NCBI RefSeq assembly: GCF_018977255.1 | Contig: NW_024704742.1 | Span: forward strand, 55,740,001 to 55,804,000 | Reading direction: 5' to 3' | Source: Callorhinchus milii | Lineage: Eukaryota | Length of the DNA: 64,000 bases | Part shown: positions 13,918 to 62,139 of the stretch, piece by piece | Layout of the letters: every line of letters starts with the position of its first letter | Numbering within the stretch: position 1 is the first letter of the stretch | Position numbers and translations under genes: made by a program | The notes under the pieces: model-generated | The model's input: the letters and a program-made list of their open reading frames with translations, nothing else | Databases searched by the model: none | Told to the model about the DNA's origin: nothing

Positions 13918-14244
13918 GGAGTCCTGTAGCTCAGTGGCTAGAGCACTAACCTTGCAAGTGAGAGACCTAGTTTTGATTCCCGGCAGGGCGAAACCTTGGG
14001 CAAGTTTCCTTACTTCACATGCCTGATAATAAACCCTCAACAAAAAAAAATTAATAATTTGGTCACTTCAATTCATGACTGTTTGTGGGATGCTGCTGTG
14101 CACAATTAGCTGCCGCAGTTCGGCCAAAATATATACAGTCAATTAACTTTACAGTATATTCTGTGAAGCGCTTTGAGACGTCTAGAAGCCGTGAAAAGCT
14201 TTATATCAAATGCAAGTATTATTATTATTATTATGATTATTATT
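13918..14244 (+). mobile_element. Full-length tRNA-derived SINE (Deu-domain-like core, L2-type tail)
   Basis: Head ggagtcctgtagctcagtggctagagc with A-box and B-box-like motifs, core tgctgtgcacaattagctgccgc, and a stem-loop plus (TTA)n tail. Confidence 0.92.
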
Positions 14245-34028: not shown

Positions 34029-34386
34029 CAGTGAAACCTATCTTCAAAGACCCATCAAGGAATGGGGCCAAAGTGGCCTTTACCCAAGGGTGGCCTCTGA
34101 GTAAGGAGACATTGCTGTGTGAATGCACACTGATAATAATCCCTCAAAAAATCCCAATAATAAATTGGTCATTTCAATCCACGACTGTTTGTGGGACACT
34201 GCTGTGTGCAATTGGCTGCAGCATTTCACCCACAAATATACAGTCAATTCACTTTACAGTTATTCTGTGAAGCGCTTTGAGACGTCTAGAAGACGTGAAA
34301 AGCGCTATATCAAATGCAAGGATTATTATTATTGTTAACTGAGGGTGGTTATCGAATGGAGGTGGTTCCTTGTGCAGGTTTGACTG
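34029..34386. mobile_element. Tc1/mariner (Tigger/pogo-like) MITE interrupted by a 5'-truncated SINE (~34130-34333)
   Basis: TA|CAGTGAAACCT ... AGGTTTGACTG|TA: 11-bp TIR with 1 mismatch and a TA target duplication. Confidence 0.8.
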
Positions 34387-37300
34387 TATTTAATTCAATG
34401 CATCTCAAAATCAGGTGTCAGCCTGGCTCAATTGGTAGCACTCTTGCCTCTGAGGCAGAAGGTTGTGAGTTCAAGTCCATGTCAGGGCTTTGAACTCACA
34501 TAGTGTAGACTGACACTCCAATAAAATGTCAGGGAGTGTTGCAGTTTTTGAGGAGCATCAAACCGAGACCCGTTCTGCACGTTCAGGCAAATGTTAAAGA
34601 ACCTATAACACTTCTCGAAAAGAGAAGTGAGTTTTTCCTGGTGTCCTGACTTACAATCTCTCAGATAAAACTCATCATTCACTTCCTTGTTGGAATCTAC
34701 TGTACGCAAATTGGCTGCTGCTTTCGATAACATAAGACACAGTTACCACACTTTATAGTGTGCTCTGTGAACTACTTTGAGATGTCCTCCCAACATGAAA
34801 GGAGCTAAATCAAATGAAAGAATTGTTGCTTATCAAATCTGTGAAACGAGAGAAGGGAAATGTCATCTGACTAAATGAAGCAATCAATAATTACGTGAAC
34901 TTTAAAAAAAACTATTTGTCAACTACTGCAACTAGTAGAAGGTATCCGAATGGTAGTTTGTATAAATAATAATAATCCTTGCATTTGGCATAGCACCTTT
35001 CACTTCAAAAGGACATCTCAAAATGCTTCACAGAGCACAGTATAAAGTGTAATGACTGGGTATTTTGTCAGTTAACGGGAATAAAACAGGAATTGTGTGA
35101 ATATTTCTTCCTTTAATTGTTTAAACTGTGTCGAATTGCTAATCACGATTCAGAACAAGAAATTTTATTAATCTGAGCTTTAATAGGTGTTCAGTGGGAA
35201 AGATAACATTCTGTCATATTCCGTTATGACACTAATTTACAATTCAAATACATTCCCCTTGGGTGCCATGAATATGAAGTGCACAAAATTATTTAAAGTC
35301 ATTTACACTTGACAACTATTTAAGACACAGTTTAATATTGAAAGACACACTCAAAGTACTGCACAATTTGATAAGGTTCAAATCAAAATTATCATGCAGT
35401 GATGTAATACGCAATAACAACTAATTCCAATGACGAGCTTTAGATTTTCAAACAAAAGATTAAGTATTGATGAGGAGTTATGCTAACAGCATTGTAAAAA
35501 TTACTCCGTGGTACACCGTGAGTCTGATTAAATGCCTTTGAAAATAAATGTTACTGTCAAGGAGGGAGTAGAGGTAGCTTGTACCTGAAGATTTCCTGAC
35601 CACAACCAGAATATAAAATAGGACATTACACAGATAGTGTTAGTCTATTTAAACTGTGCCTGAAGATCACTGGAAATCAAATATTCTATGAATATCTCAT
35701 GCCGAAAATATCCATTTTAAAATGCAGATTTTAATCCTGTTATGCGGGCATGTTATTTGTTCCCAGCTCTTCGACAAATCAGGAAGCAATATTTTCCAAT
35801 AATGCATTTAAGCCAATTTAAACAAAAAAACTGAACTCCATTTGGATCTATTGATCCTAACTTAATTCCGTCTTCCTGTTAGCCTGACCTGTACTCCCTG
35901 AAAAAGCACCTACATCAGTATCAAATTACATTGTAATATACGTGTACGGGCATACAGTAGGGTTCGAAAACCAATGAGAATTTAAATTATTTCCCCCAGA
36001 ATTGATTGGAATCATTTTCGTTTGCAGAGAATAATGGTAAAAGAAAATACAGTGAACATTTTACTTCCCAGTTACAGAAACCTAATTTATGCTGCTTAAA
36101 TGGTACATTTTGAAACAGCTGTAAATTGAGTACAAAATCAATTTATAGCTGCCAAGCAAATGGATTATTTGACAATTTGCTCTTAATGATTTAACGACCC
36201 ACTGGTTAAGTTAAGAGTTCAATTTTGTTTTTTACTTACGATATCTTGGCCACCTCTTGACACCAACAAATCATAATCCATTTATGAATTGTCTGTAATA
36301 ACCTATCATGTCGTTCCTTTTCGGTTCATGACAAGGACTGCTGTCCTCTACCTCTGTCACATTACTGTCTCCAACCCTATCTGATACCAGATGCTGCTGA
36401 AACCCTCCGCCACGCCTCTGTCACCTCCCTCCTCAAATTCTCAAATCCACCCTTACTGGTCTCCCCAGTTCCACCATCCACAAGGTCCAGATCCATTAAA
36501 TATATTTGGAATTTCCATGTTAAGATGGGATCCATGGAACTCTCAGTTTGGTTTGGATACTCTTAAGCATAGTGATAGGTTTCTGTCTCACCAAAGAAAA
36601 AAAACTTGGATACTAAAAATCTCATGACACAATTTGAAAAGAGAAAGATTTATTTTCTGAGTGTTCATATCAATCCTCCAGATAATATTTACATCATGGC
36701 AATCTGCGGAACCTGCTGCATGCGAATTGGTTGCCAAATGTGCCTACAAAATAAACAGTCACGGCACGTGTGAAGTGCTTTGAGATGTTTTGACTATATT
36801 AAATGCAAGGATTATCTATATCATATTTTCATAGTTTCAATTTATGTTTCGTGAAAACAAATACAAACTTATATTGATGAAACACAAGAAAACATTATCA
36901 AAGGGAAACCTTCTGATAATGGAGTTCTCTGGGTCCAATCTCTCAGAGGTTGAGTTCCCCTTAAAATGAGAAAGAATGGGTGACTTCTGTGTCATCAGAT
37001 CAGTGCTGACATTACTTTCTGCATGATGCATCCACTTAAAGGTTAAATATAGTCACTAGACTTTAAAGTGAAGCACTTTGTGACATTCTCCCGAAAGGAG
37101 CTTTGTCAAATACGAGGATTATTGTTAATAAATACAGGCTTGAACATAAGACCATGAGACAAAAAAAGACGAGGGCCTATCTAGTTCACCTTCCACCTTC
37201 CTGGAGGTCATATGCACATAGTCCCCAAACCACCTATGTTCTATATCCCATGAGACTTGAGTTTGAATTACAGAAAACTGCCTTCACGTTAAGACTGAAT

Positions 37301-42924: not shown

Positions 42925-43420
42925 CACAACAACAAATTACGTCAGGAGGATGTGCAAAGGTGCTAGACAGTCAGGGATTTAGACCCGAGCTAGGGATTGG
43001 TATCAGGAGGAATCGAGGGCAGGTAGGGTAGGGGTAAGAGGTTGGCCGAAGGCACAGTCGAAGAGGAGGGTCTTGAGGCGTATCTTGTTTACCTAGCAGT
43101 AAGTAGGAATCTAGTTGTTAGTTGATTGGCGGATCACTTTTCTAGGGGTAATAGTTTCTTCAAAAAAAAATTGGTTACTTCAATCCACGACTGTTTGTGG
43201 GACACCACTGTCCACAATTGGCTGCCGCATTTCGCCCACAAAAGTGCCCCCATTCTTATCGTGGACTTTACAGTATATTCTGTGAAGCGCTTTGAGACAT
43301 CTCGAAGATGTGATAAGGTACCATATCAAATGCAAGGATTATTATTATTGAAGGAGGGAAGAGAGGGAACGATGGGATTTGACTGTGAGATAGAGCTCCA
43401 AAGGGTGGGGGCACACCTGG
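42925..43420 (-). mobile_element. L2 3' fragment interrupted by a + strand SINE (~43100-43349)
   Basis: L2 tail reverse complement at 42925-43087 resumes at 43350-43415 after the SINE tail. Confidence 0.75.
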
Positions 43421-43439
43421 AATCTGTGCTCTCTGTTGC

Positions 43440-44061
43440 AACGTCGCCCGGCTCCCACACAGTCTCACATCGCAGGCCACTGAAACCCTCATGCACGCCT
43501 TCATTACATCGAGGCTCGACTACGCAAACTCACTGCTTGTCGGCATCCCCAACTCCTCCCTCCACAGGCTGCAGATCATCTAGAACTCTGCAGCCGGTGT
43601 CTTGTCCTGCACCAGGCTCCGTGACCCTATCACCTCCATCCTCGCCCGACTCTACTGGCTTCCCATCACATAGAGGATACAGTTCAAGATCCTGGTCCTC
43701 ACCTTCAAAGCCCTCCATGGTCTTGCTCCCCCCTACCCCTGTGACCTCCTAAGCCCCTACCATCCTGTTCACTCCTTCCACTCAGCGCACTCTGGCCTGC
43801 ATCATGTCTACCGCCTCGCTTGCCCCACTATTGGCGTCAGGTCTTCCACCACTCTGCACCCACCCTCTGGAACTCCATCCCCCAGTCCCTCTGTCTCGCC
43901 CCCCTCCCTTGGTACCTTCAAGACTCACCTCAAGACCCTCCTCTTCGACCGTGCTTTCGATTGCCCTGCTTCCCCCCTTCCCCTCCCCACCTCCCTCATC
44001 CTGACCCTCAGCTCAGGTGTGCAACTCTGTCCAGCGCCTTGGGACGTCCTCCCCACGTGAA
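43440..44061 (+). mobile_element. 5'-truncated L2 copy hosting the full-length L2; its last ~55 bp continue at 47742-47798
   Basis: Encodes C-terminal L2 motifs (HAFITSRLDYANSLL, WLPI..RIQFKIL, LWNSIP). It breaks at ...ctccccacgtgaa and resumes after the insertion as ...aggcctgatatgaatgtaattttgttg. Confidence 0.88.
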
Positions 44062-47000
44062 TAACAACAACAACAACAAGATTCCATTTATAGAGCGCCT
44101 TTCACGTCGGGAGGACATCCCAAGGCGCTGTACAGTTGGGTCAGGACCTGAGCAAGGGGGCAATGGTCAGGGTGAGGCGAGGGAAGGGAGGGAGCGAGGA
44201 GGGGGTAGAGAGTCAAGAGGGGAGCTGAAGGCACGGTCAAAGGGAAAGGTCTTGAGACCGGCCTTGAAGGAGGAAAGGGAGGAGGCGGCGAAGGCACTGG
44301 GGTATAGAATTCCAGAGCCTAGGGGCTGAGAGGCTGAAGGCCCAACCACCGATGGTAGGGCGGTTGGGGCGGGGGATGTGGAGCAGACCGGAGCCAGAGG
44401 AATGGAGGGTACGGGCAGGTAGGTAGGGGGATAGTAGGTCGGAGAGGTAGGAGGGAGCAAGGCCGTGAATGGCCTTGTAGGTGAGGATGAGGATCTTGAA
44501 TTCAATCCTCTGGGGGATGGGGAGCCAGTGGAGGCGAGCGAAGGTGGGAGTGATGTGGTCCCAAAGCCTGGTGCGGGACAGTACACGAGCTGCAGAGTTC
44601 TGAATGACCTGCAGCTTGTGGAGGGAGGTGCCGGGAAGGCCGGCGAGGAGAGAGTTCCCATAGTCCAGCCTTGAGGTGATAAAGGCGTGGACCAGAGTTT
44701 CAGCAGCGTGAGGGGTGAGGTAGTGCCGTAGTCTGGCGATGTTTCGGAGGTGATGGAAGGCGGTGCCAGTCGTGGCGCGGATATGAGGAAGAAAGGACAG
44801 CTCAGGGTCGAACAGAACCCCAAGGTTCCTGACGGCTTTGAGAGGTGGAGAGTGCAGCCTTGGATGCTGATGCTGTCAGCGCCTGAGGTGCGGAGGCGCT
44901 GACGTGAGCCAATCAGGAGGGCCTCAGGTTTACGCACGTTGAGCTGAAGAAAGTTATCTCTCGTCCAGGACTCGATGTCGGACAGGCAGCTGTCAGGACA
45001 TCGGTGGTCGTGGAGTTGAGGGTAGAGGAGGAAAGGTAGAGTTGGGTGTCATCCGCATACATGTGGAAGTTAACCCCATGTCTGCGGATGATGTCACCAA
45101 GGAGGAGCATATAGAGGGTGAAGAGGAGGGGACCGAGGACAGAGCCCTGAGGGACACCGCACGAGACAGTGCGGGCCTGGAGGAAAAACCATTCGTGGAA
45201 ACAAAGTGAAGACGGTGGGAGAGGTACGACCTAAACCATTCAAGGACAGGGCCTTGAAGGTTGAGGTGGGAGGACAAGCGGTGGAGGAGGATAGCGTGGT
45301 CGACCATATCGAATGCTGCCGATAGGTCGAGGAGGACGAGGAGGCAGAGGGAGCCCTGGTCACAGATGGTCAGGATATCATTGGTGACCTTGACCAGGGC
45401 AGTTTCTGTGCTATGGGCAGCACGGAAACCTGACTGAAGGGGTTCGAATAATGAATGGGTGGAGAGGAAAGAGCGCAGCTGGGAGGCGACAACTCTTTCC
45501 AGGACCTTGGACAGGAAGCAGAGGTTGGAGATGGGCCGGTAGCTTGATAGCTGTGATGCATCAAGGGAGGGACTTTTCAAGGTGGGAGTGATGGTGGCAG
45601 TTTTTAAGGGAATGGGAACAGAGCCAGAGGAGAGGGACAGGTTGACGATGTCTGTGATATGTGGGGCAAGGAGGTGGAGCTGGGAGATAAGGAGTGGAGT
45701 GGGGATGGGGTCAAGGGAGCAGGTGGTGGGTTTCAGGGATAGGATGAGTTTGGTGACAGAAGGTGGGGAAACGGGTACGAAAGTGTGTAGGGGAGGATGG
45801 GTAGGAGTCGGAGTGTGGGAGGGAGGGGGTGGGGGGTGGGTGGATGTTGGAGGGGAAGTGACCGCGGAGCGAATTCCCTTGATTTTGGATTCAAGGAAAT
45901 CCAGCATCTCCTCGCAGTGAAGGTTGGAGGAGATGACCTGCGCGGGGTGGCGGGGGGGACGGAGGAGTCGGGATGTGGTAGAAAACAGTAGCCTGGGGTT
46001 GTTCTTCGCCTCCAGGATTATCCTGGAGTAGAAGGACGACTTGGCCGAGGCTAGAGTGGAGCGGTAGATTTTGAGGAGGTCCAGCCAGATTTGTCGGTGG
46101 ACCGTTAGGCCAGATTTGAGGCAGGTGCGTTCAGCGGCCCGCACCTGGCTCTTCAGTGAGCGGAGGTGGGTGGTGAACCAGGGGGAGGAGCGAGAGTAGG
46201 AGACAGTACGGGAGGTGATGGGGGCAAGAGTGTCGAGTGTGGAGGAGAGGGTGTTGTGGAGGAGGGTGAGAGGAGAAGAGGGGTCGGTGAGGGTTGAAGG
46301 CCAGAGGGAGAGGAGATCAGAGGACTCCAAGGCAGCGGTTAGGGATTGTGGGGATAACTTCTTCCATGGGAAGTAGAAGATGGTGGTGGGTCTGGTGGAG
46401 GTGGGGAGGGGGGTGAAGGTGGTGAAGGAGATGAAGTGGTGGTCGGAGATGGCCTTATCGGTGATAGTGACATCCGAGACACTGAGGCCCCGGGTGATCA
46501 CCAAGTCGAGTGGGTGGCCGTGACTGTGAGTGGGGGAGTTGATGTGAAGGGAGAGGTTGAGCGAGGAGAGCAGGGAAGAGAAATCTGAGGAGATGGAGCA
46601 GGAAGGGGGTGAAGTGCAGGTTGAAGTCGCCCAGGATGATGAGGCGATCAGAGCAGAGGCAGAGAGATATAAGAAGTGTCGAAATATCGGAGTTGAAGGT
46701 GGGAGAGGTTTTAGGGGGCCGGTAGAGGAAGACAATTTTGAGCGAGAGGAAGGAGGGGTGGGAGAGGGAGAGGTACTCAAAAGAGGGGAAAGAGCCAGAG
46801 GAGTAGGGGGATAGGGCAAGTGGTGTCCTTGAGATAAGGGCTACACCACCGCCACGGCGGTTGGGGCGAGGGATGTGGTGGGAGGTGTAGCCGGGTGGTG
46901 TGGCCTCCGTGAGGGGGAAGGTGTCGCCTGGGGTGAGCCAGGTTTCCGTTAAGGCCATGATGTCAACGCTCTCATCAAGGATGAGATCGTTGATGACCAG

Positions 47001-47741
47001 GGCCTTGTTACAGAGGGAGCGGACGTTTTGTAGTCCGATGTGGAGGGAGCGGTTGACAGAAGGGTGTGTGGGGAGGGGGGGGTCCAGGTTGTGAGGCAGG
47101 GGTGGGGGGAATGGGGATAAGGGAGGAGAGGTTGGCTCCCCGGGTCTGTGTCCGGGGTGGCTGGCGAGTGTGGTGGGGAATGGGGCAGTCGGTGTGGCTG
47201 CTGCTGGACAGCCAACGCCGAGTGCCACGGTGAGCCCGGCGGAGGATTCCCAGGCTGGAGCAGAGAGAGGTTGTGGGAGGGTCAAGTGGGGATAGAAGGC
47301 GAGAGGGATGGAGAGAGAGGAGGACAGAGCGGGAGAGATGCAGAGGGGGGAGAGTTTGGGGGTAGAGAGGAGGGAGGAGGGAGGGAGGGGGTGAGGGGGT
47401 GAGGGTCAAAGCGACAGCCATAGTGCGCACGCGGGGACCGGGAGCGAGCGGTCAGATGGATGGCATTATCCCGTAGGCTGGGGCTGGGGCAGCCAACGCA
47501 ACAGGACCATGGTGGGCCCTGATGTGAGCCCTGGGAGGGTTGGTGGGCGCAGAGGATTTTTTATTTTTTTTATTTGTTGCACGCGCACACTCCTGAAAAC
47601 TAAACTATGACGTCAGTGGTTCCCCTGCTCCACCCCCACCCGTTCCCCCCACACCCCCCCCCCAGCTGCACTCCCTGCCGCCGTGACCTTAAATACCTGG
47701 GTAGGTAGCCCCAGGCTCCTCCCCGCGCTTTCCTGCCGCTG
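44062..47741 (-). mobile_element. Apparently full-length single-ORF L2-clade LINE (APE endonuclease + reverse transcriptase), frameshifted
   Basis: Minus-strand ORF pieces carry endonuclease motifs (LQNVRSL, MALTETWL, RRGGGVA, LYRPP, ILGDFNLH, LDLVI, SDHH) and RT motifs ([31 protein letters not shown]). The 3' end has a stem-loop and a (TTG)n tail at 44062-44080. Flanks are CTCCCC(A/G)CGTGAA at 44049-44061 and 47742-47754. Confidence 0.95.
44167..47421 (-). pseudogene. L2 ORF2 (EN-RT) broken by about six frameshifts
   Basis: Consecutive ORF-track frames (47008..47430, 46455..47285, 44993..46819, 44913..45110, 44167..44937) join into one colinear L2 polyprotein. The likely start is the ATG at 47421 (MAVALTL). 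Confidence 0.85.
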
Positions 47742-48479
47742 CTCCCCGCGTGAAAGGCCTGATATGAATGTAATTTTGTTGTTTTTGTTGTTGGTGTTGC
47801 CTGGACGTATTTGAAAGTGAGTTTTGGGTTTACTTTCTCAATCGCATTTAAAATCTTATTTGCCTCTATAAGGTCCCCTCTGAAAGGCCCCTTTTCAAGG
47901 CTGTAGAACCTTAGCTTGTTTAATTGTTGCTCATAGCCTCTGACATGGGGGATCTTCCTCATTAAGAATTATCACATCACACAGTGCATTTTCCATCTAT
48001 TCAACAAGATCTGCAGCAGGTAATATTTCAGCAAAATTCATATAATGTTTTTTGAAGCAAAATTGCCCCCATTCTTATCGTGGACATTATGAGCTCATCA
48101 TCTGATATAATTAAAGAGCTCTTGGCATACAGTTAGCTTCAGATTTTCTATGTGCCTTTTTTGAGGAATGGTTATAAAGGGAAATCCAATATTAATAAAA
48201 TAACTGAAGTAAACCCTCTCTTTCCATATTCAGCTAATGGTAATTAGAGGTTGACTGTGTAGACTGGGAATGTAATTGTGATGATTGTGATGAGAGGCCT
48301 CGAAGTCTATCGTCAGAGTCAAATTTTGCAGCTTCCACAGAATGCAGAGTAGTCTAAAATAATAATCCTTGCATTTGATACAGCACCTTATCACGTCTTC
48401 TAGACGTCTCAAAGCGCTTCACAGAATATGGTGTAAAGTGAATTGACTGTCTATGTTTGTGGGTGAAATGCGGCAGCCC

Positions 48480-49514: not shown

Positions 49515-49913
49515 AAGCAGGGCAAAACCGTAGGCAAGTTTACTTACCCCATATGCCTAATAATAATCCCTCCAAAACAATAATAAATTGGTCATTTTCA
49601 ATCCACGACTGTTTGTGGGACACTGCAGTGTGCATTGACTGCTGCATTTTGCCCACAAATATATGGTCAATTCACTTTACAGCATATTCTGTGAAGTGCT
49701 TTGAGACGTCTAGAAGACGTGAAAAGCGGTATATCAAATGCAAGGATTATTATTATTGTTAACCGAGGGTGGTTATCGAATGGAGGTGGTTCCTTGCACA
49801 GGTTTGACTGTATTTAATTCAGTGCATCTCAACATCAGGCGTCAGCCTAGCATTGAGGCGTCTAGAAGGAGTGAAAGCGGTTTTATCAAATGCAAGGATT
49901 ATTATTATTATTA
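49515..49913 (+). mobile_element. SINE with two tails separated by ~95 bp that matches the 34.3-kb locus
   Basis: Tail 1 ends at 49757, 49758-49851 matches 34334-34427, and tail 2 spans 49853-49913. Confidence 0.88.
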
Positions 49914-50560
49914 TATCAGAGCAGAAGGGATTTAGGCATTTATTGAGCAAACCTAGGATGTCTAACCTGAAGTTTAATCATCAATAGCCATTATTTCCAT
50001 TGCACAACATCGTAGCTGTAGTAAATGGCACAGGTATTTGACCTCCATTGACCTTTGCATACTTTAACAGCAAAACACAAATCCACTGTCAGTCTACGAA
50101 GCTGAAGACATGTCTCCTTGTGGGCTATTGTTAGGGTTGTCTCATGCATGCCACCTAAAAGAAAATAGAGAGAAGCACAATCTCACAACTTCAGGAAAGA
50201 CCAGCTACCATCATTGACATCAATACAGAGAAAAAGTCTGCAAAGTCTATTTTAACTTCTTGTGGTCTATACACTGAGGATTCTTTCTTCCAAAGTAAAA
50301 TCAGAAGGCACGTGTTTAGGTATTCAGTTAATCAAAAGTAATTTAAATATAGAGGATGTGTTCCACATGGATTCACAGCTGGGTGATTTTGTTGTACCTT
50401 CTGTTCTCTATCACAGAGAGTGATACCAAAGTACTGGTATAACTGCTGTTATATCAAGATGGTTGTCTGATTCCCTGAACTTGCCAGTTGCCAAGATGCA
50501 GACAACATGAAACCCTGTTCCCACTTTCCTGGTATCAGTCAGATGACTACTGGATTTATT

Positions 50561-50861
50561 GGAGTCCTGTAGCTCAGTGGTTAGAGCACTCGCTTTGCAA
50601 GCGAGAGACCTGAGTTCAATGCCAGGCAGGGCGAAACCTTGCGCAAGTTTCCATACTCCACACGCCTAATAATAATCCATCCAAAACAAAGCAATAATAA
50701 ATTGGTCATTTTCAATCTACGACTGTTTGCGGGACATTGCTGTGCGTTCACCCACAAATATACAGTCAATTCACTTTACAGTGTGTTCTGTGAAGCGCTT
50801 TGGGACGTCCTCCCGACGTGAAAAGCGCTATATCAAATGCAAGGATTATTATTATTATTAT
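50561..50861 (+). mobile_element. Full-length tRNA-derived SINE (L2-like ctccc loop variant)
   Basis: Head ggagtcctgtagctcagtggttagagc...gagttcaatgcc; tail gcgctttgggacgtcctcccgacgtgaaaagcgc...(TTA)n. Confidence 0.92.
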
Positions 50862-50961
50862 GGCCTATTCATCAATATTATTAATAATAATAATATGTAT
50901 TATTATTAATAATGCATAATATTAATTGTAATACCTGCATTTGATATAGTACCTTATCACA

Positions 50962-51215
50962 TAAACAACAACAACTTATATAATGCCCTTAATGCCGGGC
51001 AGTATCCTAGAACGCTTAACAATGGTGGAGCTTGATGCCAAGCCAGAGGGAGGGGGAAGGTGACCATAGGCACGGTCGAAGAGGAAGTTCTTCAAGCGCA
51101 ACCTGGAAATGGGGAAAGAGGGGGCAAAGGGACTGAGGGAGGGAGTTTCATAACTTTGGGGTGTAGTGGCTGAGGCATGGCCGCCAATGGTGGAATGGAG
51201 GATTCCTGGGGTAAT
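50962..51215 (-). mobile_element. L2 3' fragment
   Basis: (CAA)n tail; the minus strand reads RLKNFLFDRAY. Confidence 0.8.
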
Positions 51216-52432
51216 CGGGTTGCAAAGTTTATTGCAGGTGAGAATGCGGGCGGCGAATGCTACCAACTGAGCCAACTTCCTGTAAGTAGAAAAAACAGAA
51301 ATCGCAATGCATTATTGAGGTAAAGTTTGCAGCATTTCATCATTAACACAAAGAAGATGCTATGAATTGCTAGAAGCTTTATCCCATTGTCTCAAATGAT
51401 GTAGGTAGTTTCCTTAGTAATATTCTGCATTCTTCGAACATCGATCAACACTCTCTTAACATTCAAGTAAAAAATAACTCCTACAACCTTGATAACCATT
51501 ACTGACTATTAGCACTAAACCCATTATTTATAGAGAAGGAAGGAATGTCAGACTCAACAATAATGTGTGCCCAGAAGATGAAAATATTTTTAAAACCTCC
51601 AAACATTTAAGTGCACACTGTAAAAAAATCTCATAATTTGGCACTAATTGACATTAATTGGCAGTCACTCCCAAGCCATAAAGGTGGCTGATGTGTGAAA
51701 TAGCTCACTGGTGTCGAGTGCCTGAACTCTGATCAATGTATCTTGTTCTCCAATTTCCATCTTACTCTGTAAGAGTTATGTAGGTAACTTTTGGAATACA
51801 TTTAGATAGGAAGGACTAAAGTATTCTCAAAATTGTCTTGTTTTTGATTGAAGAAAATTTACATGTGCATGTCTTAACAAGCTTGTTGAGGGTGTGTGCG
51901 CATGAGTACTCTGTACATTCCTTGCAAAAAGGAATTCCTTTTTTTTCTGCTTTAGTTTACGACCTTTCAAGACGGTATATTTACAGGTTCATACAGACAG
52001 GCTCCAATTAGTTTGGTACCAGGCACAAATCTCGCGTCTGGCCCAGGTATCATAGATTTATAGGTTTACAGATAATGTCAAATGATTCAAGAAATGGCAC
52101 CATTTCTAATGTGGCTGCTTGTATCTTTTCAGGGTAGACTGAACAAGCACTTATTGATAGACACCTTAGCCTAACTGGACAGGAGGAGACCTGTCCTTGG
52201 TTTTCAATGATAATGACTAACTGATCCAGAAATAGGTTGAGCAGAACTGAGAGAAGTCACAGCATATTGCAAACGTAAATTCACTCCCTTTCAAAAGATA
52301 GGTTGCAAGAATGGAACCATCTGAATACATCATCTGACGACTTAAAGACAAAGACTTAGAGGAACATTCTGAAGAACAGGGAAGAAAATAGATTTGAGAA
52401 AATGCCTTGTTGTGCAATATTAGGGTACCTCA

Positions 52433-52871
52433 TGTCAGCCTGGCTCAGTTGGTCTCACTCTTGCCTCTGAGTCAGAAGGTTATTGGTCAAGCCCCATTTC
52501 GGAACTTGGAATTCATATAGTCTAGGATGATACTCCAGTGCAGCGCTCGGCGATGGCTGCATTGTTGGAGATGGCATCCATCAGATGTGATACTGAACTA
52601 AGGCTCCATCTGTCTGTTCAGGTGAATGTTAAAAATCCCCTGGTACTATTCGAAAAAAGGTGGAAGTTTCTCCTAGTGTCCTCGCCAACAATCATCCAAT
52701 ACAACTAATCATTTACTTCATGGCTATTTGTAGTACATTGTTGTGTGCAAATCAGCTGCCGCGTTCACCCATAAAACAAACAACTACTGCACTTTACAGT
52801 ATATCCTGTGAAGCTCTTTGGGGTGTCCTCCCAATGGGAAAGGTGAAATATCAAATGTAAAGATTATTATT
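52433..52871 (+). mobile_element. Older, longer Deu-domain SINE (SacSINE1/AmnSINE-like architecture)
   Basis: Head tgtcagcctggctcagttgg...gcctctgagtcagaaggtt, central ...ctgttcaggtgaatgttaaaaatccc..., Deu-like core and the shared L2-type tail. Confidence 0.85.
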
Positions 52872-53287
52872 ACTAATATTATTGCAAACCTCACACAAGG
52901 GCATTGTTTGAAACCAAAACTCAATCAATTGGTGGTGAAAGATATACAAGCAGGTTATGGAGTAAAGTACTCTTGACCAACCCTAACCCTAACTCTAATC
53001 CTATTTAGGATTATCTGCCATCTGTGCCGGACGCTGGAGCAAAAGCGCAGAAGGTTGATCCCATATTTCCCATATTACATCGTTGAATCAAGTTTAAATA
53101 TTGAAGGTCTTTATTCATTGCCTTTGCCTCAATTATGCTGGCCAGATTTGTGTTGGCTACAAAGATATATGTATAAACTGGGAAACCTGCTTTCTTCAAA
53201 ATTTAAAATACCATCATGTATGTGCAGCCAGATACATGGTTGTGTATATGTCTACATATACACAACTGGAGCTCATGCGGTGTGAAG

Positions 53288-54178
53288 ATGGAGGTCGGGG
53301 CCTGGAGCGGCTTCTGCTTCACTGTTGTCGTCGCAGTGGTTGCCTGTCAGACCTCGAACGAAACTGTTGTGAACCTGACTTCTTCAAGTCACACGTCGAA
53401 CAATGCGAAAGATAATACTACAATCGATACTTTCGAGCAAATCAATTCATCTTCAAGTCACGTAATTGACAGTACTGTCATTACTACCATTAATATTAAA
53501 CCCACTCCACGGTCTTCTACAGCACTGAATCTCAGCACCAAAAACAAGAATACTATGCAGAGTGTTGATCATAAAGCTAACGAAACACCTATTACATTAG
53601 AAAAAGATGCTGACAAGGCATCAACTGTGAAAGGAAGCACTGCAGTAGAGAGAGAAAGTACAACTGTGACTATGATCGATGCAGGTAATGCCGATGAAGA
53701 AGAACTTCCCGTAACACCCAATGATGATCCAACAAAGATAGATGAAATGACTGAAGAGTTGATTCCTGTGAGTTTGGATGATGAATCCGAGGCTTACTAT
53801 GATTCTAACCTGGACAAAGGAATGGATGATAGTAATCCAGTGGATTATTATGATCAAAGCCAAATGGATGAGGATGACGAGGATGACATGGACTCCAGCG
53901 ATATAGAGGAATCACTGGAGCTGCCCGATACACCAATATCCATTTCTGCACCAGAAGAAGACGACAGTCATTTCTTTTTTTATCTGGTTGTAGCTGCCTT
54001 TCTGGTTGCCATCATTTACATCACCTACCACAACAAAAGAAAGATTTACATTCTCCTAGTCCAAAGTAAACGATGGAAGGATGGTCTTTGCTCGAGGGCA
54101 GTTGAATATCAGCGGTTGGACCAAAATGTACATGATGCCATGCCATCACTTAAGATTACAAAGGACTATATTTTCTAA
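53288..54178 (+). CDS. C5orf15: Keratinocyte-associated transmembrane protein 2 (KCT2/C5orf15)-like type I membrane glycoprotein, 296 aa, single uninterrupted ORF
   Basis: ATG at 53288 is in a strong Kozak context (aagATGG) and opens a signal-peptide-like stretch ([20 protein letters not shown]). It is followed by an S/T-rich ectodomain with N-glycosylation sequons (NET, NLT, NTT, NSS, NLS), an acidic stretch, a TM helix ([21 protein letters not shown]) and a tail [49 protein letters not shown] that I recognise as the KCT2 C-terminus. The in-frame upstream ATG at 53216 is a less likely start. Confidence 0.92.
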
Positions 54179-55571
54179 GTGCATCACTTGCAGCTTTATA
54201 AAAGATAATAATTGTCAATCTTATTATATGCATTCCAGTTTGTAAAAATCTTTTTCATCTTGTGCTTACGAAAGAGTGCCATTGAAAACACGAATACTTG
54301 GCCTAGATCTATAAATATTACAGGTAAAGCAAATCAATTTGTTACTGATCTTTGCTGGAAACTGTCTTTGCTGGAAGATATTTTTATGTGGTTATGTGGG
54401 CCACATCAAAATTACCTCTAAACTGGGTCTCTTTACTGCATTACTATCTGTGAGCTCAACAAAGATGCTTTTGGTTTACAATAGCTGTCAAGACTAGAGT
54501 AGTCAGAAATAAAAAACAAAAGTTTGCTAATTGCTGGCAAAGGTTTTTTTCCACTCTTTGAATTGAAAAACATTTGCGTTTTGTCTCCTTTGAATTTCAA
54601 ATTTTCTTTTTTAGGTTACAGGGAAACGGGTGACTTAGAATTAGACATTTGGTTGTTGTTTGTTATCTGTCAGTTTAACAAATTTGTATAAATGGCAAAC
54701 ACTTTTACATAGCTTGAGTACTGGAAAGGAATAGGTTGTGTGACATGTTTGCCTGTTTTCTGTAATTAGGCTATTGATCTTTTAAACCAGTACTTTTTTT
54801 TAGTTCTGATCAAAATTGAATCCCTTTGAAGGTCATGATATTTCTGGGTTTTGTATCATAATTATTCTTAATAGCCTTTAAAATGTCTTATTAAATGGCA
54901 CTTTAGCCAATACTGGAGTGGAATTTCAAAAATGCCTGCCTGTTGCCTTAGCAAAATGTCTCCATCTTAAAATGCCTACCATTTTTATTCTGCAATCATA
55001 GACCTGGATCTATCTACTTAAATATGTAAACCACAAACATTTTTATATTGGGTTTTAGGAGTGTCATATTTTATGTTGCTATGTTTAGTAAGGTATCTTC
55101 AAATGTAGTGTATTTTTCAACGTTACTTTGTGTACAGCCACAAGTGGTGGATCAGGAGGCTTTGTTGATACCTTTTTTTAAAGTTATTGATAACTCTGAA
55201 CAGTGTACATGGTACTTTATACCTAATAGGTAGTTGCTCCAGAAGCCATTTATCAGTCTACCTGAAAGCATGATTTTTTTAAAGTGATTTTCGATAAGAA
55301 CCTGCATTCATAAGCTTGGTGTGGGATTATCAAGGTACTAGATCAACAAAATTGGTCAGTTGTCTTAAGTTATTTGGCCAAAATATCAGCTTTATTATTT
55401 TGCAAAATTATGTAGCAATCCGAATCATAAAGGATGAATGACGCATGAAACATTTACCGATGTATTCTTGACTATTTTGATCATGTTTTTACAAGGGAAG
55501 CCGCTTAAGGCGGATACATAGGGGGTGGGCATTTTGTCCGAATTAACTAGTGCCCGAGGTTAACTAGGGTC

Positions 55572-55788
55572 TTAATAATCCCTCCAAAAACTAAAAACAA
55601 TAATAAATTGGCCATTTTCAATCCATGACTGTTTGTGGGACATTGCTGTGCGCAATTGGCTGCTGCGTTCGCCCACAAATATATAGTCAATTCACTTTAC
55701 AGTGTGTTCTGTGAAGCGCTTTGGGATGTCCTCCCGACGTGAAAAGCGCTGTATTAAATGCAAGGATTATTATTATTATTATTATTAC
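55572..55788 (+). mobile_element. 5'-truncated SINE of the same family in the putative KCT2 3' UTR region
   Basis: Core and tail nearly identical to 50670-50861. Confidence 0.9.
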
Positions 55789-55869
55789 ATGTGTATTTTG
55801 ATGCTACAATTTTGGAAGAGGCCCAAACAATTATAATCTGGTCAGCGGACACTGGGACACTGTACTGTC

Positions 55870-55910
55870 ATTAAATAAAATGCAGAGCATTCCTGGTGTT
55901 GTGTTTGATT
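55870..55910 (+). terminator. Candidate polyadenylation signal for the KCT2-like transcript
   Basis: Overlapping ATTAAA/AATAAA (55870-55879) followed ~15-30 nt later by a GU-rich tract (ggtgttgtgtttg). An alternative AATAAA lies at 54508. Confidence 0.3.
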
Positions 55911-57614
55911 GTTAAAGCTTTAGTTGTGGACACACAAACACACATACACATAGTGCAAATCCACAACTGTCTACTACATTGTCTTGAAAGAATTGGAATG
56001 ATTAAAATAATAAAGGATTAGTAGAAATGTTATGCCACATTTATGATTTTACCGGTGTGAATGCAGAGCAATAATTCTAGTTTAAGGGGCAGAAGGAGTT
56101 ACAGCATTACTGTGACAGTATAGAAGAAGCATTTTCCTTCCCACATATGCAGTAGCTTATAAGATGTTCTGTCTCTAGATACAAAAGTAGACAAATGTTC
56201 TATTCTTCAGCATTAACATCCATCATTTTGATAAATGCAAAATACATAGAAAAAAATAGAGAAATGCTTACAAATCTGAAATGGTTGTTTTTTTTTGCTG
56301 CAGTTTACAATGTACAACACAAAACATGTAATGTGACAGATAAAGAAGGCAATGAATTCAGTCTGGTTTTATTCCAGAATTGCAGGGTTCTGGGATACAG
56401 GACTGCAGTTGCTGATGAATGAGTTATAGCATAGTACTGACAGATGTTACATCCTTACCACGTGATTAAGCAAACTAATGTGCTTCCTTTGTGAATGAAT
56501 ATCTGTCTGGGTTCCGGACATGCAGTAGGAACACACAATTACACTGCATGGATTTCTTACTTTTTTTTAACATTCTTTGGTTTAATTTCAGAATTAATAA
56601 TTATTCTTACTTGTTAAAGCATTTCATTTTTTTCACAGTAAGTTTTCAGTGAACTCTTGTTGTGATGTTCCATCTATTTAACGTATTTCTGTGGGACTTA
56701 AAACCTCATCAAATCAACAGTAAATCAATAGACTAGTTGAGACCTTGTGTTGATGATGGGAATGAAAAAAAAGTTTCTGAGTAAAAATAATGAAAATAAA
56801 AATTATAAAAATGTTATGAAATTATAGGAAATGGATACAATTCAGATAAAATATGCCAATCCTTTTGCGATGCAAAACTGAGCAACAGATATTCAACTTT
56901 GTACAAAATAACTACAGTATGAATGTTGGTAAAAACCTATCCATAGCTATTTGGCTGAACAAGAAACATCAGTCACTTTCCCAAGTTGTAAATTCAATTT
57001 CATGAAAATGTGACATGGGCACCCGATTTTACAGTGATTCCTTGCTTCACCTCCTCACAAGTGCTCAGGCAGGCTTAAAGATACCCCTGAATAGGATTTG
57101 ATAGTTACCTTTCTATCAATTAAGCAGGCAAACGGTTTGGGCCTGCGGTAGAGTTCATGGATAGTATGAGTTTCTGATTTCCATTTCATTCTTTGAACCA
57201 AATGCCTGTCTTTTGACTGAGCCATTGTGAATGTAATACATGTATTAACTTTTATCTGTTGCTGAGTTCAGGGAGGACAATATTAAGCTTTAAAGGTACT
57301 TCTTAAGGGATCTTGATTGGAAAGTATTTCCACACAGTGGAGAGTTTTTTATTGGCTATGCTTGTTGTAAGAAGAGGGGTTGGGAGTAAGGAGAATATGA
57401 GATCTGGGGATTCATAGGCAATTGGTTATAGTGCAGTGAAATGTGGATGAAGATTTAAATCCCCCCAAATCTGCCCAAATTATTGTGAATACTTTATGGT
57501 TTGATCTGAAATCCTTTCAATTTATCATGTTTTTTGTGGAAATGAGTAATATCTGTGTTTTGGGATCATGTGAACATATTATAAACCAGAATTCTTACTT
57601 GGTTAGCAATAAGC

Positions 57615-58090
57615 TCTAACCATAAGTTTCAAGTTATCCAAAATCCGTAGCCAACATCCTCATCCTCACCGAATTCTCACCCTATCTTCACCACACTCCA
57701 CTGGCTTCCCAATGGATTCATTTCAAGATACGCACACTCACCAATAATTCCTTCATGCCCTAGCACCATCTTACATGATCTACCCAACTCCTCTGCTCAG
57801 CCTCTTCACTCAGCAAACTTGGGTTTGCTGTACATTCCCTCCCTCTCCATGCCACCATCAGTGCCCCTGACCTCTGGATCATCCTCTCTCTACTCCTCCA
57901 TTTCAACCCTTCTCTATCTATCTTGAAGACCCGCCTTAAAACCTACCTCTTTGACCATGCCTATCACCATTTCCTTCCGCACTCTCTCTCTCCCTCTCCC
58001 TTGCTTGGCATCTGATCCCATCTTTGTATAGTGTTCAGAAACATTACCTTACGTGAAGAACACTAAGTAAATGCAAGTTTTTGTAGCTGT
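57615..58090 (+). mobile_element. Old L2 3' fragment
   Basis: LHWLP and LKTRLKTYLFDHAY motifs with a degenerate tail. Confidence 0.8.
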
Positions 58091-61000
58091 AATAAAGTTA
58101 TCAGATCTATTTAGCTGAGCGTTTGGTAGATGTATATGGGTTACATTCTTCTGATGGAGGTTCTATTTATGTCTCTGCCCACAGAGTGTGGTACGAGCTC
58201 CAGAATCATCTGTAACTTTTTGCTCAGACACATCCCAAGGTATGGATTTACTCCTGCTGGTGTAGAATAGTCTGCAGTGAGCTGATGCATCTTCCCTCAC
58301 GCCCACGTGTTTAGCGATTGGACAGTTATCTTCCAGGGAAAACTGAAATGAAGACTTTTCTAAAATGAGAAAATTAGACTATATAGAAGCAAATAATATT
58401 CCTGGATCCAATACAATCCCTTTGTTAAGACTGATGAAAAAATCTTTCTTTAGTGCCAGATAATTCATCCTATTTAAATAAAGCTAACAGCACCCACAGT
58501 GTGAGTTGCAGTAATAGGTTTCAGAGTGGGAACTGGCCCAGCTGGACACATGATTGAGTGATAGTCTTAGAGGGAACATAATTTTATGTGGAGGAAATTG
58601 AATGCCCTGATTTCCAGCAAAGTGATCGCTTTCTGGCAACATACTATATTAAAAGAATGTATTCTGAGAACAGAGCACCACTTTATGCATTAACTATTAA
58701 AGCAGAACGACAGAATAATCTTAAAGATAAGGTTAGTGAATGGGTAAGTAACAGTTAACTACTGTATTAGACAGATTAATTGTGTATTTGTGGCTTTTGG
58801 CTGGAAACTGGATGAAAAATAATCTGTTTTAGAAAAGGCTGACCTCGCTGACTATATTGTCTTGTAAATCTCTCACCTTTGGCAAGGGTTCAGACTCATT
58901 TATGGATGAGGCAGTCTTGTAGGCCAGTATTATGGCAATTATTAACAGCACACATGTAGAGAAAGAATTGGATGGGTTTAGAACGCTTACAATACTCCAA
59001 AGGATCTTGCAACCATAGTCAATGACTAATCTAGTTAAAGTATAGGGGCGAATTTCTATATTTCCCACTGATTTTAAACATTTTTGTTTATTTTGTTTTA
59101 TTTATCTGCTTTATCTAGCGAAACAGTCATCAATTAGAAAATGAGCGAAAAAGGGAGATATAACTTTTGAAAGGGAAGGACATTCCCTGTTTATGGGATA
59201 TTGTATGCAATGATGTGCTCTTGACTTCTTCTCTCCCACTTTTCCCAAATACCCTCTGCATTCCAGCTTACATCAAGGATTGCTGTGTCAGCATGGACTT
59301 GATTTGCATTCTTGCCAAGACAGCCATCTCCACGCTTTTTGGCTGTATTGCTGCCATTAGGCTATTTCCACTGTAAACAGACTTGTGGAGATGGTTAAGA
59401 AGTGTGAGATAGCCATGACATAATCCAGTATGTGTCTGCCTGCTACAGTGGAGCACATGCTTACACCTCCCGCGAGACCTGGCGATCTTATTGAAGAGTG
59501 GGATACAGACTCAACAGCAAAATAATACAAACATTCAATGGATGTATTGTGCTGATCGCATGCTTTTTCTGACCAGTGTGTAAAAGAAAACAATAGTCCT
59601 AAAAAAGAACAGAAGGTTGTTTGATACTCAGTAAGAGATTCAGATTGAACTTGCATAGATTCACCAGTGGGCTTTGAATGCATTATTTTCTTTCCAAGCT
59701 GCCATCAATCTCTTTCTCCAGCTGACATTGTTTTTATATGTCATTTTCCAACACCCTCCTGGAACATTTCTCTCTTGAGATGACAATATTTTCTTTTCTT
59801 TTCCTGTTCATTGATCTAGAAACTGCAAACAGTGGCTTGTGTTTGTAAGAGAAATAATGGACGCTTGATAATTTGAACAACATGCCTTCAGCGTACAGCA
59901 CAGTGGGGGATGGTAAAACCAGCAATTGTGATTGCTAACACAGTTCCCTAATCAATCCTTAGATAGTGAGGATTATAGTACCCTGCAGGATATATCAACC
60001 AATGCCCTGACATTTTTACTTTCAAACAGTTATTTCAGAAAGTTGTAAATCTTAAACAATTGGTAATTTGAGGAAATGTTTATAATTAGAAAGTACTAAT
60101 CCATTCACAAGATACCTTCACAAGAATGATTTAGTTGGAGAAGTCCCCTTCAGCCTATTTGATTTCATCCTTCCAGAACACCCACACTTCCGGATTCCCA
60201 GCACAGCATCAAACTGTTTTTTGATCAGTGCAGCGTTTTGGCCTCAATCACTCTTCCTTGTGACCTATTCTAACTGTTAATTACCTCTGGGTAGAGAAAA
60301 ACTTCCTGGTGTCAGAGATCATGTTAATGCAAAATCGTGCATATATTACACAAAAATTCTGTCAATATGCAAAAACTGACATGCCGTCCATCCCATGTAG
60401 GCAAGTTTTTTTTTACAATGCAAGACTTGTCAATCAAAGTTCTTTGTTTTCTCATGTGTCTGACTGTCGTCAGATGATCATGCGTGACATGGATCTATCA
60501 ATTGGCATATTTTATTTTGGTCCAAACCCCTATTAAAGATCTATTAATGAGTCATCAGAGACTTGACAATAAATCAACTGGAATATTCCTCCAATGGTGG
60601 GGTGGGCAGACCAGTGACTGCCAAGTGGAGGCAGAGTGGAGGTTAGTAAGTTTTCAGCAGTGCAAAGTTTAAGAAGAGCATGTCTGCATTCTGGCGCGTA
60701 GTCAAAGCTGTTCCTCATAAGGCTGCTTTCATATCCAAAACTATTTTTCATAAGAGATTGTAATCATAGCAATCTTACATTCTTGGCACCATTTTTTATT
60801 TATTTGTTTAAACTCTCAGAATTTTGCTGATAAATATCAACTGCTTGAGCTTTGCTGCTGTGTTCTTTGACATTGTTGGACACTCTTGAATTATACAATC
60901 ATTGTGTAGATTGTAGAGAGTCCTTCAGTATTCACTTTTACTTGTGCTGTTCATTTAAATAAAATGGAGATTTTTTATTATCTATAATAATCCTTACATT

Positions 61001-61501
61001 TGATATAGCATTTTATATATTGGAAGACATCTCAAAAGCTTCACAAGACTTGTGATAAAGTGTAATGATTGTTTTTAGGTGAAAGTGGCAGCCAATATGC
61101 AAACAGCAATGTCCCAAAAATCAGCAGTGAATTAATTGAGCTATTTCATCTGCAGGATTGTTTACCAGGAAACCAGGAGAAACTCCCTTCTCATTTTGAA
61201 GAATGTCATGGGACTTTAATATCCACCTGAACAGGCAGCTGAAACCTTGGTTTAATGTGTCACCTGAAGCATGTATTGAATCTTGTTAACAGTAAAAGAG
61301 TGCATGGTAAAATAAAATCAAGTTGAGTAATTCAATTGGGCTGACATCCATTAACTGTTATCACTAAATGAAGACATGAGAAAGAAGGGAATAAAGGCAT
61401 TCGGAAGAGGAGATAAGGAGCAATGGAGGCTCATGTGGAGTAAATTCCTTGCACGGACTAATTGGGCTGATTGGCCAATTCTGTGCTGTTATGTTCTATG
61501 T

Positions 61502-61728
61502 CAGTGGTGGCCAACCTGTGGCCTACAGACCCGAATTGGCCCACGTAGCCATCAAGAAGTGCCCTTACCCCCGAACTTTCGCACGTGTCTAGGTAAATCC
61601 GTGTTCGATTGGTAGCGTGTTTTCATTTTTTTCTTGATTGAATATTTCTTGATTTATGACACACACCAAGAAATATTCAATCAAGAAAATGCATTTTGTT
61701 TGCTGTCCATAAAGGTTGGCCACCACTG
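61502..61728. mobile_element. hAT-superfamily MITE (227 bp)
   Basis: Perfect 16-bp TIRs CAGTGGTGGCCAACCT / AGGTTGGCCACCACTG and an 8-bp TSD ttctatgt / ttctatat (1 mismatch). Inserted in a CR1 tail. Confidence 0.9.
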
Positions 61729-62139
61729 TTCTATATAATTCTATTTACTAGCAGACGCTCTTTTATGTGTTTATAGTGAGATGTTTCATTCAATCAGGCA
61801 AAAGGCAATGGTTTATAACTGAAGTAGAATGCTAAAAGAAACATCTAACATATTACTGCAGAAAATGACTAGCAATGCTTGTGGAGCATGTTACTACAGA
61901 AAATGACTAGCCATGCTTAATAAAAAGTTTTATCAGGAGCTTGTCACAAATTTACTTACAGTGTATATTTGGATTTCACCATATTTCCAATTATTCTGGC
62001 ATTTATGCTAATGAGCCTTCATTGAGGTCTGATATTATTATTATTTACAATATTCAAATTCTGGTTTGTGAAACTTGTAGCTGGTGAATCACAATTCCCC
62101 AGTTGGCTGAATCCAATAACAGCCCAGTGAGCAAGACTG

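What the first reader, a model, noticed from the sequence alone, without database searches (positions are those of the whole stretch)
53288..54178. Intact but intronless KCT2/C5orf15: candidate functional retrogene
Seen: signal peptide, ectodomain, TM and cytoplasmic tail lie in one 891-bp ORF with no stop or frameshift, and the [10 protein letters not shown] region is continuous (aaaagaaagatttac). CpGs cluster in the first ~180 bp of the ORF. I see no recognisable VDAC1 exons upstream. Recalled knowledge: mammalian C5orf15 has a multi-exon CDS and lies next to VDAC1. Inference: this is a retroposed mRNA copy kept intact by selection or by young age, or a case of lineage-specific intron loss. 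It would be notable in a genome region dominated by L2/CR1 LINEs, which are considered stringent for their own 3' tails.
Basis: partly seen in the sequence, partly recalled or inferred. Interest (0 to 1): 0.7.

Follow-up and report, generated by a model that had tools for sequence, protein, structure and literature searches.

The report
Young gene retrocopy with borrowed tail
This is a recent, intron-free copy of an ordinary membrane-protein gene in the elephant shark, with no sign of being a working gene, but its end suggests that the messenger RNA was pasted into the genome by borrowing the tail of a short jumping element.

Summary
The 891-bp ORF is real, intact and KCT2/C5orf15. It is a young processed copy, not intron loss. 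Callorhinchus milii has KCT2 records on three contigs. RNA-like contigs match 53269-55572 at about 97% and carry the alleles of the 301-aa parent. Function is unsupported: 15 amino-acid against about 6 silent differences (dN/dS 0.5-1.0), several at conserved residues. There is no poly(A). mRNA homology stops at 55572, at least 967 nt before the parent contig ends, and a 5'-truncated tRNA-SINE starts at 55573 in the same orientation. Its stem-loop tail is shared with a LINE in the window. A 13-bp hairpin sits at the 5' junction and a possible 5-nt duplication brackets the whole unit. Best reading (0.65): the reverse transcriptase of a tail-specific LINE began on SINE RNA and jumped to KCT2 mRNA. 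This is known for U6 snRNA; I did not find it described for a whole coding sequence in a cartilaginous fish. The mRNA-SINE junction was not confirmed in independent contigs.

The parts
53239..53266 (.). Perfect hairpin, 13-bp arms (53239-53251, 53254-53266), ending 2 nt before the mRNA copy; read as fold-back synthesis at the 5' junction
   Evidence: one of 2 hairpins with arms of 13 or more in 64 kb (the other is in an ATT repeat), 0 in 5 shuffles; 1 of 3000 random positions reaches this, 0 of 33 SINE/LINE-tail 5' edges; covered with 0 differences by X1 record 1
53253..53257 (+). Candidate target-site duplication, left copy (TACAT)
   Evidence: chance of a 5-nt match within 20 nt of a random boundary 0.106; post hoc
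53258..53268 (+). 11 extra nucleotides between the candidate duplication and the mRNA copy; 9 are an inverted copy of the flank 53239-53247
   Evidence: sequence; like the flank-derived 5' extra nucleotides of zebrafish L2 inserts (PMC4245944, passages)
53269..53287 (+). Last 19 nt of the parent's 5' UTR
   Evidence: X6 record 17 aligns from 53269 and has 44 further letters that do not fit the window
53288..54178 (+). Intact intron-free KCT2/C5orf15 ORF, 296 aa; closed junctions at 53360|53361 (phase 1) and 54043|54044 (phase 0); lacks 5 codons (DLLTN) present in the parent behind 53425
54179..55572 (+). Copied part of the parent's 3' UTR, about 3.1% diverged, cut short; no poly(A)
   Evidence: contigs of 4 of 4 runs stop matching at 55572 and run on for 48, 62, 967 and 1059 letters
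55573..55787 (+). 5'-truncated tRNA-derived SINE (lacks about 110 nt of head) in the mRNA's orientation, with stem-loop at about 55715-55750 and (TTA)7 tail
   Evidence: full copies with tRNA-Ala head at 50563, 17889, 13920
55786..55790 (+). Candidate target-site duplication, right copy (TACAT); its first two bases overlap the last tail repeat
   Evidence: no duplication found around the SINE alone (best 2 nt)
44060..46958 (-). Broken LINE (endonuclease and reverse transcriptase fragments) whose 3' end matches the SINE tail; shows the family that would supply the enzyme, not the active donor
   Evidence: Pfam RVT_1 E 1e-14 and Exo_endo_phos E 1e-9; 63 of 78 identical to 55709-55786; same stem-loop, z -3.86

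Best explanation
A young, probably drifting processed copy of KCT2 made in one insertion by an L2/CR1-type LINE that recognises its own 3' tail. Steps: (1) the LINE protein bound a SINE RNA by the shared stem-loop and primed at the target on the (TTA)n tail [inferred]; (2) after about 215 nt it jumped, without visible homology, to a spliced KCT2 mRNA lacking its last kilobase or more [inferred; the abutting anatomy is shown]; (3) it copied 2.3 kb to within 19 nt upstream of the start codon [shown]; (4) the 5' end was joined after a short fold-back copy of the flank, leaving 11 extra nt and a 5-nt duplication [hairpin shown, duplication suggestive]. Since then the copy has gathered changes about as a neutral sequence would and has not yet hit a stop or frameshift. 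If it were expressed it would give a type I membrane glycoprotein with a YQRL tyrosine motif like its parent (sorting role recalled from TGN38/46, not tested).
For: Retrocopy: three contigs (139.2, 19.6, 81.2 Mb) hold C. milii KCT2 records in one 90% cluster; parent P0122 95% identical; X6 record 17 covers 53269-55572 in one piece with 66 other letters and 23 gap letters; models P0123 and P0124 leave P0122 exactly at codon 25; skate-cluster ORFs P0140/P0142 read into intron sequence at both junctions and P0180-P0189 read from an acceptor into the last exon; X1 contigs end at 53389 and 54043 and X8 at 54043, where forks to introns are expected. Chimera: mRNA match ends 55572 in 4 of 4 runs, SINE match starts 55573 in the 5 best hits; same orientation; about 15 same-strand tail copies per 64 kb make a chance abutment about 0.2% (my estimate); tail shared with a LINE, one stem pair differing on both sides; SINE is 12 of 176 from its nearest window copy, the same order as the copy's age; hairpin and candidate duplication bracket the whole unit, none brackets the SINE alone. 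Precedent: U6-L2, U6-Mon-1 and U6-AnolisSINE2 chimeras with 1-9 bp duplications (PMC4476161, passages); 5-bp duplications and flank-derived extra nucleotides for zebrafish L2 (PMC4245944, passages); SINE/LINE tail pair in this species (PMC1845163 and PMC3747384, passages). Drift: 15 replacement and about 6 silent differences, dN/dS 0.53-0.97, 0.2 rejected at p below 0.02; window-side changes at N191 (13 of 15 elasmobranchs), Y218 (15 of 15), R261 (21 of 21), T271 (15 of 15), parent-side changes at 3 variable columns.
Against: No listed contig spans 55572|55573; X1 record 7 mixes window and parent alleles and runs on 1059 nt past 55572, and no window allele is laid at 55418-55513 in X1; I read this as an assembly mosaic but cannot show it. 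The duplication is 5 nt, 2 of them shared with the tail, chance 0.106, found post hoc. 0 of 33 other tail-bearing copies show such a hairpin at their detected 5' edge. Another SINE copy (34130) is cut within 4 nt of the same point, so this truncation need not involve an mRNA. The parent's introns are inferred, not read from its DNA. dN/dS rests on 21 sites, 3 of the silent ones inferred by subtraction; 0.5 is not rejected (p 0.19-1.0). The only indel in the ORF is in frame, against 7 listed indels in the 1394-nt UTR (4 in T runs); P(intact) under drift 0.08-0.27, extremes 0.006-0.71. In non-mammalian chordates 54-87% of retrocopies are intact and many are constrained (PMC3136929, passages).
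Confidence: 0.65

Rival explanations
1. Two events: an ordinary poly(A)-primed retrocopy (L1-type enzyme), later cut back by an unrelated SINE insertion with a target-site deletion, or by a deletion that fused its UTR to a neighbouring SINE; or an assembly misjoin at that point. The copy is non-functional as in the best explanation.
For: LINE1 is reported in all vertebrate lineages (PMC4350176 section 16) and retrocopy number follows LINE1 number in chordates (PMC3136929). SINE tails are dense here (33 in 64 kb). The junction is unconfirmed and X1 record 7 runs past it. A third copy exists whose end I could not see.
Against: Needs a deletion of 1 kb or more ending exactly on a same-strand SINE; no A-tract remnant on either side; no duplication around the SINE alone, a candidate one around the whole unit; X1 record 8 joins the tail region to the downstream flank.
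Confidence: 0.2
2. A functional young retrogene (however it was made), expressed in a tissue not sampled, such as testis, under weak or relaxed selection.
For: Whole ORF, start context, signal-like N-terminus, TM and YQRL kept; only an in-frame indel; annotated as protein-coding by public sources (P0125); present with 0 differences over 52900-53389 in X1; high share of functional retrocopies in non-mammals.
Against: dN/dS 0.53-0.97; replacements at residues unchanged across elasmobranchs; CpG-poor upstream flank; the RNA-like contigs that were found carry parent alleles at full depth at every listed site they cover (X6 39 of 39, X8 38, X13 30), though contigs cannot show absence.
Confidence: 0.12
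3. Intron loss at the single true KCT2 locus, or a DNA duplication of an intron-free gene.
For: The parent's genomic sequence was not read directly (no genome held).
Against: Homology is confined to transcript sequence and stops 19 nt before the ATG; a separate locus supplies the transcripts; introns at both junctions in skate and at the second junction in other vertebrates; no VDAC neighbour.
Confidence: 0.03

Closest known systems
KCT2/C5orf15 family (Pfam PF17818); C. milii XP_042196079.1 (P0122)
   Same: 95% identical protein, same layout and tail.
   Different: No introns, other contig, 5 codons shorter, 15 replacements, truncated 3' UTR.
U6 snRNA chimeras with L2, Mon-1 SINE (platypus) and AnolisSINE2 (lizard), PMC4476161
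   Same: Cellular RNA 5' of a short element of a tail-stringent LINE/SINE pair, same orientation, small or uncertain duplication, no poly(A).
   Different: Cargo is a 2.3-kb spliced mRNA with a whole reading frame, in a cartilaginous fish.
Mammalian L1-made processed pseudogenes and mRNA/L1 chimeras (PMC13174262, PMC5470649)
   Same: Intron-free copy of a spliced mRNA at a new site.
   Different: No poly(A), no 14-17 bp duplication; partner is a truncated SINE, and the SINE side does not start after an AG, so trans-splicing does not fit.
LTR-mediated retrocopies (PMC5131818)
   Same: Template switch between a retroelement RNA and an mRNA; 3' truncation without poly(A).
   Different: Element on one side only, non-LTR, no microsimilarity seen at the switch.
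SINEX-1_CM/SINE2-1_CM paired with CR1-2_CM (table in PMC3747384; PMC1845163)
   Same: tRNA-derived SINE sharing its 3' end with a CR1-like LINE in C. milii.
   Different: No repeat library was available, so the window's SINE and LINE are not assigned to these names by test.

Membership tests
KCT2/C5orf15 protein family | Pfam PF17818 above gathering score | tested here: met
   148.1 bits against 26.2
Processed retrocopy | Continuous across parental intron positions | tested here: met
   both junctions closed; introns shown in skate ORFs and inferred for the parent
Processed retrocopy | Homology limited to transcript sequence, at an unlinked site | tested here: met
   53269-55572 only; contigs of 139.2 and 19.6 Mb
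L1-type processed pseudogene | 3' poly(A) tract | tested here: not met
   no A run of 9 or more in 50001-62000; SINE at the end
L1-type processed pseudogene | Duplication of about 7-20 nt (range recalled) | tested here: not met
   best match 5 nt
Functional retrogene | Intact reading frame | tested here: met
Functional retrogene | dN/dS against parent significantly below 0.5 | tested here: not met
   0.53-0.97 on about 21-23 differences
Functional retrogene | Transcribed from its own locus | tested here: inconclusive
   contigs found carry parent alleles; contigs cannot show absence
Functional retrogene | Kept at the orthologous site in related species | not testable with these tools
   no vertebrate genome held
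Template-switch chimera of a tail-stringent LINE/SINE | Cellular RNA fused directly 5' of a truncated element, same strand | tested here: met
   55572|55573 in the window; junction not seen in independent contigs
Template-switch chimera of a tail-stringent LINE/SINE | Element ends in a LINE-shared stem-loop and short repeats | tested here: met
Template-switch chimera of a tail-stringent LINE/SINE | One duplication around the whole unit | tested here: inconclusive
   5 nt, chance 0.106
Template-switch chimera of a tail-stringent LINE/SINE | Both parts arrived together (empty orthologous site) | not testable with these tools
   no related genome; ages only of the same order

The most novel reading that the evidence does not exclude
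In a genome ruled by tail-stringent L2/CR1 LINEs, whole protein-coding mRNAs are duplicated by a jump of the reverse transcriptase from SINE RNA to mRNA, and this is the usual route for retrocopies in chimaeras (the third KCT2 copy would end the same way). It would supply a missing mechanism for gene retroposition where L1 is scarce.
Probability: 0.35. Interest if true: 0.65.

Novelty: new variant of a known kind. Interest (0 to 1): 0.42.

Why it matters
As a gene it matters little: a 3%-diverged spare copy of a poorly studied membrane protein, annotated as coding but probably drifting. As an insertion it bears on an open question that reviews state: which enzymes make retrocopies in non-mammals, given that CR1/L2 proteins recognise only their own tail (PMC5470649, PMC4476161). 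A whole coding sequence carried by a borrowed SINE tail is a concrete answer, and it can be tested at once by reading the 3' ends of all young retrocopies in this genome.

Tried and rejected
Own genome: none held, so parent introns, synteny and the third copy could not be read. Sequencing runs: no RNA holder listed as such; X5-X14 are only guessed RNA. No contig with window alleles was listed in X6, X8 or X13; contigs drop rare variants, so this is no evidence of silence. I laid 4 of the 24 runs listed. The SINE swamped the joint, loose-end and piece tables (44, 601 and 63802 rows not shown), so intron-side loose ends and the mRNA-SINE junction could not be seen. Host gene: 0 of 122 fragments hit Pfam. 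PDB by sequence: 0 hits. No fold or complex job was run. Earlier findings: nothing by sequence, words or place. Poly(A)-signal-like hexamers at 54508 and 54890 are followed by no A tract and lie inside the copied UTR. The ARAGORN tRNA-Ala at 50563 is a SINE head. The first wide SINE alignment was cut in output and was redone on 6 copies. Not in print as far as searched: C5orf15 + retrogene 0 papers; other searches (listings only) gave no description of this locus or of mRNA-SINE chimeras in cartilaginous fish. The library lacks most subscription papers; supplements of PMC13320880 (retrocopy tables) and RetrogeneDB were not looked at and may list this copy.

Full report
Observation. The ORF is as described: 891 nt, 296 aa, no stop, Pfam KCT2 at 148 bits, best relatives in sharks and rays at E 1e-50 to 1e-60 (best 120 of 616 listed). 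CpGs are enriched in the first 180 nt, 12 against 13 in the remaining 711. The VDAC part of P0035 has no match in the window and 0 of 122 chosen fragments hit Pfam.

There is a parent. The 90% cluster of the window protein has 7 members, the 6 named ones all Callorhinchus milii, on contigs of 139.2 Mb (this protein), 19.6 Mb (P0122, 301 aa) and 81.2 Mb (P0121, 207 aa). P0122 differs by 15 residues and 5 extra residues. Contigs of three runs guessed to be RNA lie on 53269-55572; X6 record 17 covers it in one piece with 66 other letters and 23 gap letters, about 97%. They carry the P0122 alleles, including the 5 extra codons, at full depth at each of the listed sites they cover (X6 39 of 39, X8 38, X13 30; 44 further rows were not shown). 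Their depth is zero over 52900-53167 and at most 4 beyond 55848. The DNA-like run X1 holds both versions side by side at 54577-54730 and matches the window without a difference over 52900-53389, across the 5' junction and the first closed exon junction; it may or may not be independent of the assembly.

The parent gene has introns where the window has none. Two other models with the parent's alleles (P0123, P0124) leave P0122 exactly at codon 25, and catshark and zebra shark isoforms part at the matching place. Two ORFs in the little-skate cluster (P0140, P0142) replace the first exon by intron-like sequence ending in F-A before the shared V and end HNKRK-VSR-stop, which reads as an acceptor and a donor. 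Ten short vertebrate ORFs (P0180-P0189) run from an acceptor-like Q into the last exon. X1 contigs end at 53389 and 54043 and X8 at 54043, where forks to introns are expected (a silent difference at 53359 could also give the first). The parent's DNA itself was not read. Intron loss at a single locus is rejected.

Function is not supported. Listed silent differences are 3; 3 more follow by subtraction from the 17 letters of X8 record 25. With 15 replacements and 6-8 silent changes dN/dS is 0.53-0.97; 1 and 0.5 are not rejected, 0.2 is (p below 0.02); the UTR is 3.1% diverged, like the silent sites. Over residues 90-296, 5 changes are private to the window, 3 to the parent, 6 to the third copy, and one site differs in all three. 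Window changes fall on N191, Y218, R261 and T271, nearly or fully fixed in 15 elasmobranchs; the parent's fall on variable columns. K261 is R in the other record of this locus (P0125) and in X1, so it may be a polymorphism. Against drift: the only ORF indel is in frame while the UTR lists 7; the chance of an intact frame under drift is about 0.08-0.27, low but not telling for an ORF picked because it is intact. The gene's normal ectodomain dN/dS could not be computed.

The ends are the finding. At the 3' side contigs of 4 of 4 runs stop matching at 55572 and go on for 48-1059 letters. At 55573 begins a SINE lacking its first 110 nt; full copies have a tRNA-Ala head. Its last 78 nt match the 3' end of a broken endonuclease-RT LINE at 44060-44135 at 63 of 78; both fold into the same stem-loop (z -3.86 for the LINE, -1.74 for this SINE), with one pair changed on both sides. 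There is no poly(A), no overlap at the junction and no AG before the SINE part in 5 aligned copies. The SINE is 12 of 176 from its nearest window copy, the same order as the copy's age. At the 5' side a perfect 13-bp hairpin ends 2 nt before the mRNA match; 1 of 3000 random positions does as well. A 5-nt word at the hairpin's turn recurs right at the SINE's tail; nothing brackets the SINE alone. Taken together this reads as flank, duplication, 11 extra nt copied back from the flank, mRNA, SINE tail, duplication.

Mechanism. Zebrafish L2 inserts give 5-bp duplications and 5' extra nucleotides taken from the flank (PMC4245944, abstract and passages). Tail-stringent L2 forms U6 pseudogenes only as chimeras with itself or its SINE, with 1-9 bp duplications (PMC4476161, passages). 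The main SINE and LINE of this species share their 3' ends (PMC1845163, passages; PMC3747384, passages and table). I therefore propose one insertion primed on SINE RNA with a jump to a 3'-clipped KCT2 mRNA (0.65). End-to-end jumps without homology are recalled from R2 work and come from no call; the L2 versus CR1 clade of the window's LINE was not tested.

What tells against it. No listed contig spans the mRNA-SINE junction, and X1 record 7 is a mix of window and parent alleles that runs 1059 nt past it. The duplication is weak (chance 0.106, post hoc). The hairpin is not seen at 33 other tail-bearing copies. A second SINE copy is truncated within 4 nt of the same point. LINE1 exists in all vertebrate lineages (PMC4350176, section 16) and tracks retrocopy number (PMC3136929, passages), so a two-event history keeps 0.2.

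Novelty. Retrocopies occur in all vertebrate groups at lower counts than in mammals (PMC13320880, passages; PMC4641402, passages). Chimeras by template switch are known for U6 with L2 and SINEs, for mRNA with L1 (PMC13174262, passages) and with LTR elements (PMC5131818, passages); a review names transcript recognition as the limit for CR1 (PMC5470649, passages). PMC3022923 (passages) had nothing on this. Nine searches listed no account of this locus or of a whole coding mRNA on a stringent SINE tail in a cartilaginous fish; supplements were not read. Verdict: an ordinary young retrocopy as a gene, a new variant of a known chimera type as an insertion; interest 0.42.

Noticed in passing
P0121/P0126 (contig of 81.2 Mb): A third C. 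milii KCT2 copy, modelled from residue 90 on, about as far from the parent (10 of 207) as from the window copy (12 of 207); probably a second retrocopy, ends unseen.
   Followed up: partly
window 43330-47960: Broken LINE on the minus strand with RT and endonuclease fragments; a related 3' piece lies on the plus strand at about 43330-44061, so two tails meet end to end near 44060, with an inverted copy of the stem-loop at 44026-44061.
   Followed up: partly
window 50563-50634, 17889-17960, 13920-13991: tRNA calls (ARAGORN tRNA-Ala, Rfam RF00005) are heads of full-length SINEs, not free tRNA genes.
   Followed up: yes
window 49557-49851 and 34130-34427: Two SINE copies are 91% alike over 300 nt including the sequence after the tail, so they were probably copied together inside another repeat.
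   Followed up: no
window SINE copies 55573 and 50670 against 17996, 14027, 49561, 34134: Two tail subtypes: the first two share the loop sequence of the window's LINE, the others differ, suggesting SINE subfamilies tracking different LINE partners.
   Followed up: partly
P0035 (Acipenser sinensis): A single model joins a porin (VDAC) and KCT2; likely two neighbouring genes fused by annotation, which fits the recalled VDAC1-C5orf15 adjacency.
   Followed up: partly
P0123, P0124: Models with the parent's alleles break or lose a residue at the F-F-F codons before the TM, which looks like a T-run error in the assembly they came from.
   Followed up: no
window 53216-53287: An upstream in-frame ATG in the flank would add 24 residues to the ORF; it runs through the hairpin and is probably chance.
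   Followed up: no
window 54821-55572, run X1 record 7: Contig mixing window and parent alleles and running 1059 nt past the SINE junction; unexplained, read as an assembly mosaic.
   Followed up: partly
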